NCBI GenBank assembly: GCA_041691135.1
Contig: JBEPVF010000011.1
Location: 1 to 55,554 of the forward strand
Direction: 5' to 3'
Length of the DNA stretch: 55,554 nucleotides
Source of the DNA: Candidatus Peribacteria bacterium
Lineage (GTDB): Bacteria; Patescibacteriota; Gracilibacteria; Peribacterales; Peribacteraceae
The first letter of the stretch is position 1. Every line of letters starts with the position of its first letter. The notes beneath the pieces are model-generated. The model was not told where the DNA came from. It searched no databases and saw only the letters and a list, made by a program, of their open reading frames with translations. Below are positions 2,972-7,209 of this stretch, piece after piece. The position numbers and the translations under genes are program-made.

Positions 2972-3149
2972 ACAGATTTCTAGATAGTATAGCAGAAATA
3001 TGAGTCCCTGACTACAGAAGAAGGGCACAGAAAACGAGAATGGACAGGAAATTCACTCCCCCTGATCCCCCTGAATCCGCTGACTCTCTTGAATCCTTCC
3101 AAACCACCTTTCATTTCCTGTACCATCAAGACTCACATTCCCCCTTCCC

Positions 3150-4239
3150 GTGGAAGAGCTGCTCCAAAAATTGCAGGATTTGCACTCGGCCATCAATACG
3201 GGCAAGGACTCTCTTTGAGGCCCGTGGTATTCCGGAACAGATCAAAGAACTGGATGCGCAAACGCAGGATCCCAATTTGTGGAACGATCAGAAAGCCGCG
3301 CAGTCGCTGTTCGGCAAATTAAAAGTGCTGCGAAAGCAATGGGAACCCATCGCCGGTATTCATCAGGAAGCGACTGAATTACTCGAACTGGCAAAACAAG
3401 CTGATGAGTCCGACCTGCCCGATCTGGAAAAAGAATTCATCAAGTTGCAGACGCAGTGGTCGACGCTCGAAACGCAATTGTATTTGGGCGGCGAGTTCGA
3501 TGCGGGCAACTGTTACCTGACCATTTCCAGCGGCGCCGGCGGCACCGAGGCACAGGACTGGGCATCAATGCTCGTGCGCATGTATCTGCGCTACTGCGAA
3601 CGCCAGGACTGGACCACTGCGTTGCTCGAAAAAACAGATGGCGCGGAAGCCGGGATCAAGACGGCGACCTTCCACGTGATCGGCGAAATGGCGTACGGGA
3701 ATTTGAAATGCGAACGCGGCACGCATCGCCTGGTGCGGCTGTCGCCGTTCAACGCCAAGAACCTGCGGCAGACCAGCTTCGCGTTGGTGGAAGTACTGCC
3801 CGAGATCACCGAGACGGACGAAGTGGAGATCAATCCGAATGACTTACGCGTCGACACCTACCGCAGCGGCGGTGCGGGCGGCCAGCACGTCAACAAGACC
3901 GACAGCGCCATCCGCATTACGCACTTGCCCAGCGGTATCGTGGTGGCGTGTCAGACCGAGCGCAGCCAGATCCAGAACCGCGCCCAGGCGATGAACCTGC
4001 TGCGCGCGAAATTGCTCGAAAAAAAGCGCGCCGAAGAAGAAGAGCAGAAGGCGGAACTGAAGGGCGCCACGCAAAGCGCCGACTTCGGGCAGCAGATCCG
4101 CAGCTATGTATTGCATCCGTATCAGATGGTCAAAGATCTGCGGACCGACACTGAGACGAGCAATACGACGACCGTGCTCGACGGCGATATTCAGATGTTC
4201 GTGGACGCGGAATTGAAACGGGAAGCGAGAGGTGAGTAA
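3150..4239 (+). CDS. prfB: peptide chain release factor 2 (programmed +1 frameshift at 3213-3219)
   Basis: SPF peptide anticodon, GGQ motif, GAGGTEAQDW; GTG 3150 opens a 22-codon frame ending CTT-TGA, and the +1 frame continues EARGIP. Confidence 0.95.
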
Positions 4240-4285: not shown

Positions 4286-5101
4286 ATGCAAAGTAACAGG
4301 ATCACTTCCGCAATCATTGCCTTCTGCGTGATGTTGAGTGGTTGCAGTGCTCAATCCACTTCACAGATAACAAAGCTACGGCTGCCGGATACACAGTACA
4401 ACGAAATGTTGCTCGGACCGGACGGCTCACAATCCAATGATCTGACACCGGAATGGAGTGGCAGCGACGCTGTAAAACAACGAGAGAACCTCATTGGGAA
4501 AGAAAGCCGTGAGATTACATTTCAGTATGCCGAGCAGGACTACGAGGCGCCGTACAAACTCCATGCTCAGCATGTTATTCAGTCTTTCACGATAGGCAAG
4601 GATGCTTATACGTTGCGCACTCGCACCGAAAACCCGCCAGATCAACAGTATCAGTTATACAAAAACAACACTCAAATCTACGAGAGCCAGATGTGTTATG
4701 GCAGTGAACCTCCAATTGAGAATATCGCCATGATCGATGGAGAGATCGCGGTCACATTCCATCAAGGCGATTGCTCATCGGAGAATCGTAAGTCGGGGGA
4801 TAACTGGGTGGCGATCTATTATCGTGGCAAGACCATCAACGAACAGGAGCACGTGCAGGGCGCCAGCACTCTCTTCGACTATAAAGGCAAGCTTGGATTC
4901 GTCGCAAAGATTGATGACAAGGACTATCTCTACTTCAACGGAAAAAAGGCATCGCAGCCTTTCGATATCATCCGCACCTACACATGTTGCATGCTGCCGC
5001 AGCCGTATTTGAAAGTGTACGAGAATGGCACGCTACTCTTCATCGGTGACCGGAATCATAATCGCTATCTGACTCAGGTAGATTTGAATCAGCATCTATA
5101 A
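4286..5101 (+). CDS. hypothetical secreted/lipoprotein
   Basis: Signal peptide with lipobox LSGC; beta-rich mature region. Confidence 0.7.
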   Translation: MQSNRITSAIIAFCVMLSGCSAQSTSQITKLRLPDTQYNEMLLGPDGSQSNDLTPEWSGSDAVKQRENLIGKESREITFQYAEQDYEAPYKLHAQHVIQSFTIGKDAYTLRTRTENPPDQQYQLYKNNTQIYESQMCYGSEPPIENIAMIDGEIAVTFHQGDCSSENRKSGDNWVAIYYRGKTINEQEHVQGASTLFDYKGKLGFVAKIDDKDYLYFNGKKASQPFDIIRTYTCCMLPQPYLKVYENGTLLFIGDRNHNRYLTQVDLNQHL

Positions 5102-5144
5102 TCTCCTGAATCCTTTGAGTCACTTGTTTCCCTTGAATCTTTTT

Positions 5145-5178
5145 AAAAAAAGAAAGACCGACCCTTACGGATCGGCCT
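5145..5178 (-). terminator. intrinsic terminator of the histone-fold gene
   Basis: Minus strand AGGCCGATCC-GTAA-GGGTCGGTCT followed by TTCTTTTTTT. Confidence 0.8.
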
Positions 5179-5207
5179 GTCTTGAAAGAACAATCTTGAA
5201 GGTGAGA

Positions 5208-5378
5208 CTAAAGGTCGTCCGGGCGGACAGTCTTGCGACCGTTGGCCTGAGCGCGCTTAGCAGCCATCTTGATGGCGTTCTCGAGGTGAGCCGAAGCGGC
5301 CTCTGGGAAATCGCCGGCCGTCATCATGTCCTGCTTCTTGAGCAGCTCCTTGATAGCGGATGCAACAACGTATGACAT
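5208..5378 (-). CDS. histone-fold protein (bacterial histone, Bd0055/HBb-like), 56 aa
   Basis: Manual translation MSYVVASAIKELLKKQDMMTAGDFPEAASAHLENAIKMAAKRAQANGRKTVRPDDL; histone L2-alpha3 motif A..RA.ANGRKTV...DL; own terminator. Confidence 0.88.
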   Translation of the reverse strand: MSYVVASAIKELLKKQDMMTAGDFPEAASAHLENAIKMAAKRAQANGRKTVRPDDL

Positions 5379-5745
5379 AGAATTGTTGGAGGAAGAGATA
5401 AAACGGAAGGAATTCTAAGGGCTCCAAGGGCCTACGCAAGTACAAATCCTCTTGAAAATGGCAGTGGACGGCCTTCCTTAGCTACCAGACTGCATTTTCT
5501 GCTGTTGTACTTCTCCGAATTCATGTGGTGGATAGCCGAGTTTTTTGCTTATGAATCAGCATTTTAAGCCATACGTCAATATCTGTTCGGCCAAAGACAA
5601 GCGTCGCAAGACCCGTCTAAATCTCTGGATACATTGAAAATAGAGGGCAGTTCGACTCCGCTCACTGTCATTCGCGTCGGCAAAGAAGTGGCCCAAGCGC
5701 CAGAGTGCGAGGACCATGAGCGAGGCCCCAGAGGGCCGAGACAAA

Positions 5746-5836
5746 TGGCGGAGAGAGAGGGATTCGAACCCTCGATGCCCTTGTGGGGCATACTCGATTT
5801 CGAGTCGAGCGCCTTCGACCACTCGGCCATCTCTCC
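5746..5836 (-). tRNA. tRNA-Ser (anticodon CGA)
   Basis: GGAGAGATGGCCGAGTGG...CTCGA-CT-CGA-AA-TCGAG...long variable arm...GGTTCGAATCCC...TCTCC-G-CCA. Confidence 0.97.
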
Positions 5837-5943
5837 AAGCGCCGACGTATTGTACTGATCTGTTTGAGAAAGCAAAACCTGTCAATCGATCGAACAGGGC
5901 TCCATTCGTTGCAGATCCGGGAGAATGGGGTGACAATCTGTCT

Positions 5944-6213
5944 GTGACCAAAGCCGATTCGCTCAAAGAACTCCGTCAGATCCCGGGCATCGGAAAATCA
6001 ATCGCTGAAGATTTATGGAATATAGGTATCCGATCGATTGCGGACGTGAAGCGCAGTAATCCTGAAGAACTCTATCGGCGCTCATGTGAGCATCAGGGCT
6101 GCACCATCGATCGCTGCCTGCTCTACACCTACCGATGTGCCGTGTATTACGCATCGCATACAAAGCATGATCCGGAGCTGTTGAAATGGTGGAAGTGGAA
6201 AGACAAAAAATAA
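5944..6213 (+). CDS. helix-hairpin-helix protein (Cdd1/'pathogenicity locus' family)
   Basis: IPGIGKSIAEDL HhH; DRCLLYTYRCAVYYA...LLKWWKWKD signature; GTG start inferred. Confidence 0.8.
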   Translation: MTKADSLKELRQIPGIGKSIAEDLWNIGIRSIADVKRSNPEELYRRSCEHQGCTIDRCLLYTYRCAVYYASHTKHDPELLKWWKWKDKK

Positions 6214-6252
6214 AAACTCGCATGAGCAGAAATTCACATCAGCTTTCGAATT

Positions 6253-7209
6253 TTATTCTGGCAGTTGTCCTTTTCGCTCCGTTGGATCAACCCACGCTAT
6301 ACCGAGCGCCTTATAAATATCCTCCTCCGTTTTCTGCGCGATGATTTTGTCGCCTTCCGACAAACTGTATTCGTTCAGTTTCCATCCGCGTTCGATGGCA
6401 CGTTTGCGCAGGCTGATGTTGTGCTCTTTGTCGCCGGTAAAGTAGAGCAGTGCGCTTCCCCATTCGTTAGCCTTCACGAAACGGATATCGACGCGCAGCA
6501 GCGATTGCAGATTGAACGAGAGTTTCGTATCGCCTTTGGCGACCACCTGCTGCACCAGCGATAACTTGCTCACCGCATCGATTACACGTTCGCGGTCCGA
6601 TGTGACGACCAGAATATCGATGTCCCCCACCGTCGGCTTGTGTCGCCGATACGAACCGGCGGCTTCGACTTTCTCTACACCTGGAACTGCCCGCAAAGCG
6701 GCAAGTAATTCCTCCACATCTTTCGTCACTTCTTCCCGCGGATAGCGCTTCGATCGCTCGGTCACCTGCTGGGCATTCTCCAGAATTTTTTTCTCCATGT
6801 GCTCCGACATGCGCGGCAGATCGCGCAACTTTCCTTCTTGGGCCGCCTTGATCAGATCGGGCACATCCTTAATGCCGAGTACTTTCTGGAACTCCCGGAT
6901 GCGCTTGGGTCCCAGGTCTTCGATTTCCATTAGATCTGCCGGCAGATCGCCCTGCGCCACGCGCAGGTTTTCCAGATGCTGAATCTTGCCTGTCTCCAAG
7001 AACTCCAGAATCTTCGACGCGATGGCATCGCCGATACCGGGCAATTCCATCAGCTTCTTTTTGTCTGCCATCTCGGACACATCCTGCGCCAAATCCTCCA
7101 GTGTCTGCGCCGCCTTGCGGTATGCATTTGCTTTGAACGTCTCGCCCTGCTCACCAAGCAGTGCGGCAATTTGGTGGAACAGATGGATGAGACGGCGGTT
7201 GTTTTCCAT
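6253..7209 (-). CDS. polX: DNA polymerase X family, no PHP domain
   Basis: AYRKAA 8-kDa domain, LPGIG HhH, GSYRR...GDIDILV and RVDIR catalytic motifs, LLYFTG. Confidence 0.9.
   Translation of the reverse strand: MENNRRLIHLFHQIAALLGEQGETFKANAYRKAAQTLEDLAQDVSEMADKKKLMELPGIGDAIASKILEFLETGKIQHLENLRVAQGDLPADLMEIEDLGPKRIREFQKVLGIKDVPDLIKAAQEGKLRDLPRMSEHMEKKILENAQQVTERSKRYPREEVTKDVEELLAALRAVPGVEKVEAAGSYRRHKPTVGDIDILVVTSDRERVIDAVSKLSLVQQVVAKGDTKLSFNLQSLLRVDIRFVKANEWGSALLYFTGDKEHNISLRKRAIERGWKLNEYSLSEGDKIIAQKTEEDIYKALGIAWVDPTERKGQLPE

What the first reader, a model, noticed from the sequence alone, without database searches (positions are those of the whole stretch)
5208..5378. Unannotated 56-aa bacterial histone
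Seen: an ORF shorter than anything in the supplied track, MSYVVASAIKELLKKQDMMTAGDFPEAASAHLENAIKMAAKRAQANGRKTVRPDDL. It is monocistronic and has its own intrinsic terminator (5145-5178). Established: RKTV...D(L/I) after a long amphipathic helix is the histone-fold L2/alpha3 signature of archaeal HMf and Bdellovibrio Bd0055, and the 'VV.S.IK.L.K...M.T' start resembles Bd0055. Inference: a minimal histone with truncated alpha3 acting as a nucleoid protein in a small-genome CPR-type bacterium.
Basis: partly seen in the sequence, partly recalled or inferred. Interest (0 to 1): 0.8.

Follow-up and report, generated by a model that had tools for sequence, protein, structure and literature searches.

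The report
Tail-less alpha3 histone gene in Peribacteria
This small gene is real and encodes a 56-residue bacterial histone of the short "alpha3" type, kept by most relatives in one candidate-phyla-radiation lineage, so it is a new member of a recently described protein family and not a new kind of protein.

Summary
The ORF at 5378..5208 (-) is real. It encodes 56 aa, is single-copy in its 1.74 Mb genome, and has a conserved promoter-like element and an intrinsic terminator.

Conservation:
- 87 of 101 sampled genomes of its family have a match.
- All 100 related loci examined have the same 56-codon frame.
- dN/dS against 17 relatives is 0.09-0.34.
- Record titles of the nearest relatives read Candidatus Peribacteria/Peregrinibacteria.

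Homology: a family profile matches four solved prokaryotic histones. These are HLp of Leptospira (E 1.1e-14, ungapped), Bd0055/HBb (about 1e-10) and HTkC (2.4e-10). Its own Pfam scores fall below the curated cut-offs.

Subtype: it has the RxTxxxxD clamp (R48, T50, D55). It also has the two residues that define face-to-face (FtF) tetrameric alpha3 histones and that Bd0055-type dimers lack (R42, N46, both invariant). Its C-terminus lies one residue after the clamp Asp.

Best reading: a tail-less FtF-type histone that acts as a nucleoid protein beside HU. DNA binding and abundance are inferred.

Verdict: new member of a known kind. Tandem doublet forms and histones in other lineages of the phylum were seen in passing.

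The parts
5208..5378 (-). Coding sequence of a 56-aa alpha3-type (face-to-face-like) histone. Calculated mass 6.09 kDa, pI 9.2. The stop codon TAG at 5210..5208 is included.
   Evidence: ORF confirmed. Family profile against solved structures: HLp 1.1e-14, Bd0055 1.2e-10, HTkC 2.4e-10. Fifteen columns are invariant in 49 homologues, among them K10, G22, R42, N46, R48, T50, R52 and D55. dN/dS is 0.09-0.34.
5412..5439 (-). Promoter-like element: -35 TTGCGT (5439..5434), a 16-nt spacer, and -10 TAGAAT (5417..5412).
   Evidence: Read. The same pattern is found in 75 of 80 distinct upstream regions of relatives and in 8 of 1467 control windows. The -10 ends 28-35 nt (median 32) before the ATG. The stricter generic scan did not call it. 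Function is inferred; no transcript data were available.
5379..5411 (-). Short pyrimidine-rich leader with no Shine-Dalgarno-like motif.
   Evidence: In relatives the last 30 nt before the ATG are 83% C/T on average, and 0 of 80 have a GGAG/GAGG/AGGA/AAGG word at -20..-4. SD-like words are not enriched at long-ORF starts in this window either: 3 of 61 at the first ATG, against a background of 8%. Their absence is therefore not specific to this gene.
5145..5178 (-). Intrinsic terminator: a 10-bp G+C-rich hairpin (5178..5155) and a T-run.
   Evidence: z = -4.53. A hairpin plus T-run lies within 110 nt downstream in 67 of 80 relatives.
5746..5836 (-). tRNA-Ser(CGA), a conserved upstream neighbour. 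It is context, not part of the transcription unit.
   Evidence: It lies upstream of the histone gene, in either orientation, in 17 of 20 loci from family genomes. It lies within 1200 nt upstream in 49 of 73 further loci.

Best explanation
The ORF is a real, independently transcribed gene for a tail-less histone of the alpha3-truncated family, face-to-face (FtF) subtype, in a Peribacteria (Peregrinibacteria, CPR) genome.

Proposed mechanism:
- Two chains pair head-to-tail through their long alpha2 helices into a histone-fold dimer.
- Two dimers close into a ring-like tetramer through the end of alpha2, loop 2 and the one-turn alpha3. R42, N46, R48 and the free C-terminal carboxylate of L56 make these contacts.
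- The tetramer binds DNA without sequence preference, through alpha1 (S7, K10, K14), loop 1 (T20, G22) and loop 2 (T50, R52). It wraps roughly 50-60 bp, as shown for HLp of Leptospira.
- It acts as an abundant nucleoid protein alongside HU.

Shown here: the gene is real, conserved and under purifying selection. It is homologous to solved histones. It has the FtF signature residues and most of the DNA-contact residues. HU co-occurs with it.

Inferred: the three-dimensional fold (about 0.95), DNA binding and a nucleoid role (about 0.8), the tetramer and wrapping (about 0.6), and high expression.
For: Real gene:
- ORF, promoter-like element and terminator are present and conserved in relatives: 75 of 80 and 67 of 80.
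- 87 of 101 family genomes have a match, 76 of 82 among high-quality ones.
- dN/dS is 0.09-0.34, and mean pN/pS is 0.28 over 153 pairs.
- It is single-copy in its own genome.

Histone homology:
- The single sequence matches HLp at E 6.8e-6, HTkC at 1.3e-4 and Bd0055/HBb at about 0.009.
- The profile matches HLp at 1.1e-14 (57.9 bits, residues 4-55, no gap), Bd0055 at 1.2e-10 (44.9 bits, one gap) and HTkC at 2.4e-10 (a two-residue gap).
- 19 of 49 family members reach E <= 0.01 on Pfam CBFD_NFYB_HMF, and some more distant relatives pass its cut-off.

FtF signature:
- R42, N46, R48, T50, D55 and the terminal L56 sit at exactly +1 from R41, N45, R47, T49, D54 and terminal residue 55 of the H. volcanii FtF histone. 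There, R41 binds the C-terminal carboxylate of the opposing dimer (Schwab 2024 section 7).
- They sit at -7 from HLp R49, N53, R55, T57, D62 and F63.
- R42 and N46 are invariant in 49 homologues. Both are present in 169 of 190 domains of the 150 best library representatives.

DNA contacts:
- Of the HLp residues reported to contact DNA, A13, S14, K17, K21, T27, G29, T57 and R59 are kept as A6, S7, K10, K14, T20, G22, T50 and R52.
- Four of the five residues that carry 52% of the simulated binding energy are kept.

HU is present in the same genome at 95 bits and in 94 of 101 family genomes.
Against: - No structure or complex could be predicted, so the fold, dimer and tetramer rest on sequence alignment alone.
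- The protein's own Pfam and NCBIfam scores are below the curated cut-offs: PF00808 15.8 against 21.4 bits, DUF1931 14.0 against 21.8, archaea_histone 14.1 against 50.
- Three HLp residues are not kept. HLp K15 is A8 and K54 is G47, and the tetramer-interface residues S52 and T61 are A45 and D54.
- Net charge is only about +1.6.
- HTkC, a proven tetramer, has Glu where this protein has N46. The N is therefore not strictly required, and its presence is not proof.
- The interface of alpha2 is Ala-rich here where HLp is Leu-rich (A28, A35 and A40 against L35, L42 and L47).
- There is no evidence on expression or abundance.
- 14 of 101 family genomes show no copy, 6 of them among the 82 high-quality genomes. 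The gene is therefore probably not essential everywhere.
Confidence: 0.62

Rival explanations
1. It is a Bd0055/HBb-type 'bacterial dimer' histone. On this reading it is a stable dimer that bends DNA or coats it end-on, and it does not form tetramers.
For: The profile matches Bd0055 and HBb at about 1e-10 over residues 4-56. The window's protein has the RKT triplet (R48-K49-T50), which Schwab 2024 describes as conserved in bacterial dimers. The S7-K8 pair seen in many relatives corresponds to the Ser-Lys motif of bacterial singlets in Hocher 2023. HU co-occurs with it, as in Bdellovibrio.
Against: Bacterial dimers are said to lack the two interface residues R48 and N52 of the FtF logo. In the printed alignment Bd0055 has Ser and Asp there, whereas this family has invariant R42 and N46. 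HLp scores 13 bits higher and aligns without a gap. K49 is not conserved in the wider set: Val in 61 of 338 domains. Bd0055 continues several residues past the clamp Asp, whereas this protein ends one residue after it.
Confidence: 0.22
2. It is a histone-fold protein that is not a general chromatin protein. It might be a specific regulator or a protein-protein adaptor, like some histone-fold families that have lost DNA contacts.
For: Schwab 2024 cautions that not all prokaryotic histone-fold proteins need be genome organisers. The net charge is low. HU is present and could suffice as the main nucleoid protein. 14 of 101 family genomes lack the gene.
Against: The positions that contact DNA in the HLp-DNA crystals are the most conserved ones here: S7, K10, K14, G22, T50 and R52. 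The gene stands alone, with no conserved protein-coding partner seen. Its only recurrent neighbour is a tRNA gene.
Confidence: 0.12
3. It is a chance ORF or an annotation artefact in an intergenic region next to a tRNA gene.
For: It is very short. No Shine-Dalgarno motif precedes it. An 86-aa ORF overlaps it on the opposite strand.
Against: The same 56-codon frame occurs in all 100 related loci. There are 90 homologous proteins at 50-96% identity. dN/dS is well below 1 while about half the synonymous sites differ. It gives significant hits to solved histones.
Confidence: 0.01

Closest known systems
HLp of Leptospira perolatii (PDB 9QT0-9QT2; Hu et al. 2025, PMC12701072), a bacterial face-to-face alpha3 histone
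   Same: It is the best solved match (E 1.1e-14, ungapped over 52 residues). The C-terminus is the same, one residue after the clamp Asp. The tetramer-interface residues are the same (R49/N53/R55 = R42/N46/R48), as is the RD clamp (R55-D62 = R48-D55). Most DNA-contact residues are shared.
   Different: This protein has no N-terminal tail. It starts where the ordered part of HLp starts (the first seven HLp residues are disordered). K15 and K54 of HLp are Ala and Gly here. The alpha2 interface is Ala-rich here and Leu-rich in HLp. Leptospira is reported to lack HU, whereas this genome and 94 of 101 relatives have it. Neither oligomeric state nor DNA binding has been tested for this protein.
Archaeal face-to-face histones: HTkC of Thermococcus kodakarensis (PDB 9F2C) and H. 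volcanii D4GZE0 (Schwab et al. 2024, PMC11390915)
   Same: It is tail-less and about 55-59 aa long, as archaeal FtF histones generally are. The spacing R-x3-N-x-R-x-T-x4-D-x-COOH is identical to D4GZE0 with an offset of +1. The profile matches HTkC at 2.4e-10.
   Different: The host is a bacterium. HTkC needs a two-residue gap in loop 1 and has Glu at the N46 position. D4GZE0 itself was not aligned here; its residue numbers are taken from the paper.
Bd0055 / HBb of Bdellovibrio bacteriovorus (PDB 8FVX, 8FW7, 8CMP; Hocher et al. 2023, Hu et al. 2024), a 'bacterial dimer' alpha3 histone
   Same: It belongs to the same alpha3 family. It shares the short alpha2, the truncated alpha3, the VV.SK.K start of alpha1 and the GRKTV loop 2. 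It also coexists with HU.
   Different: Bd0055 has Ser and Asp at the positions of R42 and N46, one more residue in loop 1, and a longer C-terminus. It forms dimers only.
Nucleosomal archaeal histones (HMfB type) and Pfam CBFD_NFYB_HMF
   Same: It shares the RxTxxxxD loop-2 motif and the RD clamp. There is a weak Pfam match over residues 28-56.
   Different: It scores below the Pfam and NCBIfam cut-offs. Alpha3 is one turn where theirs is about 10 residues, and alpha2 is shorter. It therefore has no four-helix-bundle tetramer interface of the nucleosomal kind.

Membership tests
alpha3-truncated prokaryotic histones (Schwab et al. 2024) | Significant sequence homology to proteins with a solved histone fold | tested here: met
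   Profile of 49 homologues against PDB sequences: HLp 1.1e-14, Bd0055 1.2e-10, HBb 1.3e-10, HTkC 2.4e-10, 1F1E 0.008. Single sequence against HLp: 6.8e-6.
alpha3-truncated prokaryotic histones (Schwab et al. 2024) | RxTxxxxD loop-2 motif with the Arg-Asp clamp | tested here: met
   R48-K-T50-V-R-P-D-D55. R48, T50 and D55 are invariant in 49 homologues. They are present in 337, 326 and 334 of 338 aligned domains respectively.
alpha3-truncated prokaryotic histones (Schwab et al. 2024) | alpha3 reduced to 3-4 residues and alpha2 shortened | tested here: met
   By alignment only. The protein ends at L56, one residue after D55, and aligns without gaps to HLp. [quoted passage not shown]
alpha3-truncated prokaryotic histones (Schwab et al. 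2024) | Three-helix histone fold and handshake dimer in three dimensions | not testable with these tools
The ESM Atlas holds no model of the homologue tried.
face-to-face (FtF) histones | Conserved Arg and Asn at the end of alpha2 that make the dimer-dimer contacts (R48 and N52 of the FtF logo; R49 and N53 of HLp) | tested here: met
   R42 and N46 are invariant in 49 homologues. Positions were mapped through the ungapped HLp alignment and the residue lists.
face-to-face (FtF) histones | Free C-terminal carboxylate one residue after the clamp Asp, which is bound by the interface Arg of the opposing dimer | tested here: met
   All 100 related loci end D-(L/I)-stop in a 56-codon frame. 96 of 112 singlet representatives end within one residue of the aligned end. 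The role of the carboxylate is taken from Schwab 2024 section 7.
face-to-face (FtF) histones | Torus-shaped homotetramer (the defining quaternary structure) | not testable with these tools
No experiment was possible.
face-to-face (FtF) histones | Conserved solvent-exposed Lys on alpha1 (K16 of the logo = K17 of HLp) | tested here: met
   K10 is invariant. It is K in 291 and R in 31 of 338 domains.
bacterial dimer histones (Bd0055/HBb type) | Absence of the FtF interface residues R48 and N52 | tested here: not met
   This protein has both (R42, N46). Bd0055 has Ser and Asp at these columns in the printed alignments.
bacterial dimer histones (Bd0055/HBb type) | Sequence clustering with Bd0055 (the category was defined by clustering) | tested here: inconclusive
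   Bd0055 scores 44.9 bits against 57.9 for HLp. No CLANS-type clustering with labelled reference sets could be done, because no named sets were available.
[quoted passage not shown] | Score at or above the curated gathering cut-off | tested here: not met
   15.8 against 21.4 bits, and 14.0 against 21.8 bits. Only 19 of 49 relatives reach even E <= 0.01 on PF00808. A survey relying on Pfam cut-offs alone would miss this protein.
NCBIfam archaea_histone (NF043032, nucleosomal type) | Score at or above the cut-off of 50 bits | tested here: not met
   14.1 bits over residues 37-55 only.

The most novel reading that the evidence does not exclude
Peribacteria, and at least two further families of the same candidate-phyla-radiation phylum, may organise part of their small genomes with archaeal-style, tail-less face-to-face histone tetramers that wrap about 60 bp. 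The gene is kept almost as faithfully as HU. It has diversified within the lineage into fused doublets (an obligate pseudodimer whose N-half has lost the interface Arg) and Cys-rich variants. That would make CPR bacteria a major, overlooked reservoir of histone-based chromatin in Bacteria, and a natural series for studying how singlet histones become doublets.
Probability: 0.3. Interest if true: 0.65.

Novelty: new member of a known kind. Interest (0 to 1): 0.5.

Why it matters
Bacterial histones were recognised as real chromatin proteins only in 2023-2025, from two cultured models (Bdellovibrio and Leptospira). They are reported in under 2% of bacterial genomes.

Here the gene is found in 87 of 101 sampled genomes of one CPR family, close to the 94 of 101 for HU. 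It is also found in 18 of 20 sampled genomes of a second family of the phylum.

None of the main texts I searched mentions Peregrinibacteria, Patescibacteria or CPR. Their supplementary tables, which I could not open, may list them.

If the protein is abundant, it bears on how ultra-small, symbiotic bacteria package DNA. It would also offer a minimal 56-residue, tail-less FtF histone for structural work.

It is not a new principle. The family, its signature and its likely mechanism are already described, and JGI's pipeline already labels relatives 'histone H3/H4'.

Tried and rejected
Structure:
At it was reported switched off.
- Complex prediction (four copies with the alignment) was unavailable.
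- The ESM Atlas did not hold the window's own sequence. For the stored homologue P0009 it gave feature-based neighbours only. These were its own 56-aa cluster at 0.99, a CBFD_NFYB_HMF cluster at 0.94 and a DUF1931 cluster at 0.91. It held no structure.

Expression: no RNA holder was listed for window:5100-5560.

Generic promoter scan: it found 0 sigma-70-like sites in 4900-5900. The element reported here reaches only 8 of 12 consensus matches and was recognised through conservation.

Naming outgroups:
- The genome-contig scan used N-terminus-specific patterns, so it returned only Peribacteria-type records.
- The second word-index search listed only its 120 best hits, all of the same clade.
- A cluster look-up of 10 representatives gave a taxon for one only, a doublet from Candidatus Poseidoniales archaea.
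- I therefore could not build a labelled FtF-versus-dimer clustering.

Tree: 210 domains over 55 columns were mostly unresolved, with 118 of 207 inner branches open. I use it only for the two starred clades of the doublet halves.

Phages: tblastn found nothing in 50,697 phage records. IMG/VR gave 3 relatives at 38-49% identity out of 16 pattern matches. A mobile-element origin of this locus was rejected because the position next to tRNA-Ser is shared across genera.

Rfam: in 4800-6300 only the tRNA passed its threshold.

Missing Shine-Dalgarno motif: its absence was considered as a special feature and rejected, because SD-like words are not enriched at long-ORF starts in this window (a crude ORF-based estimate).

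Literature searches that found nothing relevant:
- 'Peregrinibacteria' + 'histone': 6 papers, none relevant by title.
- 'Patescibacteria' + 'histone' + 'nucleoid-associated': 0 papers.
- 'candidate phyla radiation' + 'histone fold': 0 papers.
- 'Peribacter' + 'histone': 20 papers, and the 10 listed were all about plant peribacteroid membranes.
Full report
**1. The observation.**
The minus strand carries an ATG at 5378 and a TAG at 5210..5208. Downstream lies a 10-pair hairpin at 5178..5155 followed by a T-run. The region folds at -23 kcal/mol, z = -4.53, and 0 of 200 shuffles fold as well. Whether the gene was missing from an annotation track I cannot say, because no track was given.

**2. Is it a gene?**
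A word-index search found 90 proteins at 50-96% identity. Of these, 69 are exactly 56 aa. The four longer ones I read only add residues before the same start.

An alignment of 49 of them has no gaps, 77% mean column identity and 15 invariant columns: M1, S2, Y3, V4, V5, K10, G22, A39, R42, N46, G47, R48, T50, R52 and D55.

In whole genomes, 87 of 101 sampled members of the same family have a match, 76 of 82 among those at least 90% complete. All 100 related loci I collected were chosen because they match, yet all carry the same 56-codon frame from the same start to the same stop.

Against 17 relatives about half of the synonymous sites differ (pS 0.40-0.66), while dN/dS is 0.09-0.34. Mean pN/pS over 153 pairs is 0.28. 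The gene is single-copy in its own 1.74 Mb, 92%-complete assembly.

**3. Transcription unit.**
The 110 nt upstream of the relatives' genes align by eye. The pattern TTGCNN, 15-19 nt, TANAAT occurs in 75 of 80 distinct upstream regions, against 8 of 1467 control windows from the same loci. Its -10 ends 28-35 nt before the ATG. In the window it is TTGCGT (5439..5434), 16 nt, TAGAAT (5417..5412). The generic scan had not called it.

The leader is 83% pyrimidine in relatives and has no Shine-Dalgarno-like word in 0 of 80. SD-like words are not enriched at long-ORF starts in this window either: 3 of 61 against a background of 8%. A hairpin plus T-run follows the gene in 67 of 80.

The neighbours are:
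- a release-factor-2 gene (3040-4239, +);
- an unassigned 271-aa ORF (4286-5101, +);
- tRNA-Ser(CGA) (5746-5836, -);
- a Cdd1/helix-hairpin-helix ORF;
- a family-X DNA polymerase;
- a DUF559 gene.

Only the tRNA recurs. It lies upstream in 17 of 20 and in 49 of 73 loci, in either orientation. The gene therefore stands alone. Strong expression is plausible but not shown, because no RNA run was listed.

**4. What the protein is.**
On its own it scores below every curated cut-off: CBFD_NFYB_HMF 15.8 against 21.4 bits, DUF1931 14.0 against 21.8, NCBIfam archaea_histone 14.1 against 50.

Against the sequences of solved structures it does better:
- The single sequence matches 9QT0 at 6.8e-6, 9F2C at 1.3e-4, and 8FVX and 8CMP at about 0.009.
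- The 49-member profile matches 9QT0 at 1.1e-14 (residues 4-55, no gap), 8FVX at 1.2e-10, 8CMP at 1.3e-10, 9F2C at 2.4e-10 and 1F1E at 0.008.

From the papers, these entries are:
- 9QT0-2: HLp of Leptospira perolatii, a face-to-face (FtF) tetramer that wraps about 60 bp (PMC12701072; passages and sections 6 and 7 read).
- 9F2C: the archaeal FtF histone HTkC (PMC11390915; passages and section 7 read).
- 8FVX/8FW7: Bd0055 (PMC10627809; passages read).
- 8CMP: I take this to be HBb from its near-identical sequence and its molecule name. Of PMC11317129 I saw only the search listing.

A full scan of 1.84 billion representatives found 1452 proteins at E <= 0.001 and 227 at E <= 1e-10. Homology to the alpha3-truncated histone family is therefore secure.

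**5. Which subtype.**
Schwab et al. define FtF histones by a torus tetramer. In it, an Arg and an Asn at the end of alpha2 (R48 and N52 of their logo; R41 and N45 in H. volcanii D4GZE0) contact the opposing dimer, and R41 binds the carboxylate of the last residue, 55. They state that Bd0055-type 'bacterial dimers' lack these two residues.

In HLp the same roles fall to R49, N53, R55, T61 and F63, with an R55-D62 clamp.

I checked the numbering residue by residue against the printed alignment. The PDB chain index minus 2 equals the paper's number, and the paper's number minus 7 equals this protein's number. This gives:

| This protein | HLp equivalent | Role in HLp |
|---|---|---|
| R42 | R49 | dimer-dimer contact |
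| N46 | N53 | dimer-dimer contact |
| R48 | R55 | clamp |
| T50 | T57 | DNA contact |
| D55 | D62 | clamp |
| L56 (C-terminus) | F63 | dimer-dimer contact, terminal residue |

These positions are also exactly +1 from D4GZE0.

R42 and N46 are invariant in the 49 homologues. Both are present in 169 of 190 domains of the 150 best representatives. Bd0055 has Ser and Asp in these columns, one more residue in loop 1 and a longer C-terminus.

The protein has no tail. It begins where HLp becomes ordered. This resembles archaeal FtF histones more than bacterial ones, which are mostly tailed.

Against this reading:
- HTkC, a true tetramer, has Glu at the N46 column.
- HLp S52 and T61 are Ala and Asp here.
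- The alpha2 interface is Ala-rich.

I put the FtF tetramer at about 0.6.

**6. DNA binding.**
HLp contacts DNA through A13, S14, K15, K17, K21, T27, G29, T56 and T57. In simulation, R59, K21, K15, S14 and K17 carry 52% of the binding energy, and K54 and R59 make persistent hydrogen bonds.

Here A6, S7, K10, K14, T20, G22, T50 and R52 are kept, and most are invariant or nearly so. K15 is Ala (Lys in 219 of 338 related domains), K54 is Gly and T56 is Lys. The calculated pI is 9.2 and the net charge about +1.6. DNA binding is a well-founded inference, not a result.

**7. Organism and spread.**
74 of the 80 best related loci in the species-representative genome collection are titled Candidatus Peribacteria, Peregrinibacteria, Peribacteraceae, Peribacterales or Peribacter. 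The other six are two 'Patescibacteria group', two 'bacterium', one Gracilibacteria and one Methanobacteriota. The last has the same promoter and terminator layout and is probably a mislabelled bin.

Within the class, matches are confined to the window's family (38 of 40) and one other (5 of 7), apart from one weak partial hit. In total 45 of 301 genomes match.

In a sample of the phylum, 39 of 401 genomes match:
- the window's own family, 10 of 11;
- a second family, 18 of 20;
- a third, with six genomes;
- four single genomes.

The histones of the second and third families are even more HLp-like in alpha1 and loop 2.

HU is present in the window's genome at 95 bits and in 94 of 101 family genomes, 78 of 82 among high-quality ones. 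The histone is therefore an addition to HU and not a replacement. This differs from Leptospira, which is reported to lack HU.

**8. Novelty.**
The family, its signature and its mechanism are in print. JGI already names relatives 'histone H3/H4', while NCBI calls them hypothetical.

The main texts I searched for Peregrinibacteria, Patescibacteria and CPR returned no occurrence. Four library searches found no paper linking these groups with histones.

Hocher et al. combined Pfam gathering cut-offs, which this protein fails, with jackhmmer searches from seed sequences. Their supplementary tables and those of Schwab et al., which I could not open, may list CPR members. I therefore rate this as a new member of a known kind and of moderate interest.

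**9. Seen on the way.**
Some genera of the family, and most sampled genomes of the second family of the class, carry a single ORF of about 119 aa made of two such domains joined by about 8 residues. It takes the place of the singlet.

In one doublet lineage the N-halves and the C-halves each form a starred clade next to family singlets (SH-aLRT 98 and 95). The N-half there has Ala at the R42 position while the C-half keeps Arg. Over 36 doublets, R42 is kept in 24 N-halves and in 31 C-halves. These are related sequences, so the counts are not a test.

That is what the FtF model would predict if the Arg binds a free C-terminus, which the N-half no longer has. It is a lead only.

Noticed in passing
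L114 (G068:C1:1092938-1093294), L115 (G001), L112-L113 (second family of the class); proteins P0091-P0095: Natural tandem doublets. One ORF of about 119 aa carries two alpha3 histone domains joined by about 8 residues, and no separate singlet is found in those genomes. They occur in 9 of 101 sampled family genomes and in 4 of 7 genomes of a second family. They match only one half of Pfam DUF1931 weakly, so they are not the classical DUF1931 pseudodimer. A similar doublet (P0096) is named Candidatus Poseidoniales archaeon.
   Followed up: partly
Doublet halves, alignment position 42: In one doublet lineage (L114, L115, P0092, P0095) the N-half has Ala where the singlet has the interface Arg R42, while the C-half keeps Arg. 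Over 36 doublets R42 is kept in 24 N-halves and 31 C-halves. This fits an Arg that binds a free C-terminal carboxylate, but the sequences are related and the difference is small.
   Followed up: partly
L116-L119 (G035, G012, G078, G036; same family as the window): Divergent 53-54-aa variants rich in Cys (up to six), ending ...TVYGCDC, with Tyr in place of the DNA-contact Arg R52. They form a starred clade. They may be a redox- or metal-dependent variant. This was not examined.
   Followed up: no
L102-L109 (other families of the phylum): Two further families of the same phylum carry singlets of about 56-60 aa with NKR(A/T)TVKPxD. These are closer to HLp than the window's protein. They are found in 18 of 20 sampled genomes of one family, and in all six genomes of the other that one search listed (its denominator is not shown). 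They group apart from the Peribacteria type (SH-aLRT 94).
   Followed up: partly
window 5746-5836 (-) and the related loci: tRNA-Ser(CGA) sits upstream of the histone gene in 17 of 20 and in 49 of 73 loci, on the same strand in some genera and the opposite strand in others. The tRNA gene appears to have been inverted repeatedly while keeping its place.
   Followed up: partly
window 5379-5411 (-) and relatives' leaders: The leader is 83% pyrimidine and usually has a run of four or five C about 8-12 nt before the ATG, where a Shine-Dalgarno motif would normally sit. The window has CCTCC there. How translation starts in this lineage is an open question.
   Followed up: no
window 5716-6213 (+): The 165-aa ORF with a Cdd1/helix-hairpin-helix domain (residues 80-164) overlaps the tRNA-Ser gene on the other strand in its first 40 codons. 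Its true start is probably further downstream.
   Followed up: no
window 3040-4239 (+): The release-factor-2 ORF is one uninterrupted 399-aa frame with about 65 residues before the PCRF domain. I did not check whether the usual programmed frameshift site is present or whether the true start lies further in.
   Followed up: no
L096 (record titled Methanobacteriota archaeon): This locus carries a 64%-identical copy with the same promoter-like element, pyrimidine leader and terminator as the Peribacteria loci. It is probably a mis-binned or mislabelled contig, not an archaeal gene.
   Followed up: partly
L120-L122 (IMG/VR contigs of 64-222 kb): Three viral contigs encode relatives at 38-49% identity. 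No match was found in 50,697 GenBank phage records. Viral face-to-face histones are described in a 2024 preprint.
   Followed up: no
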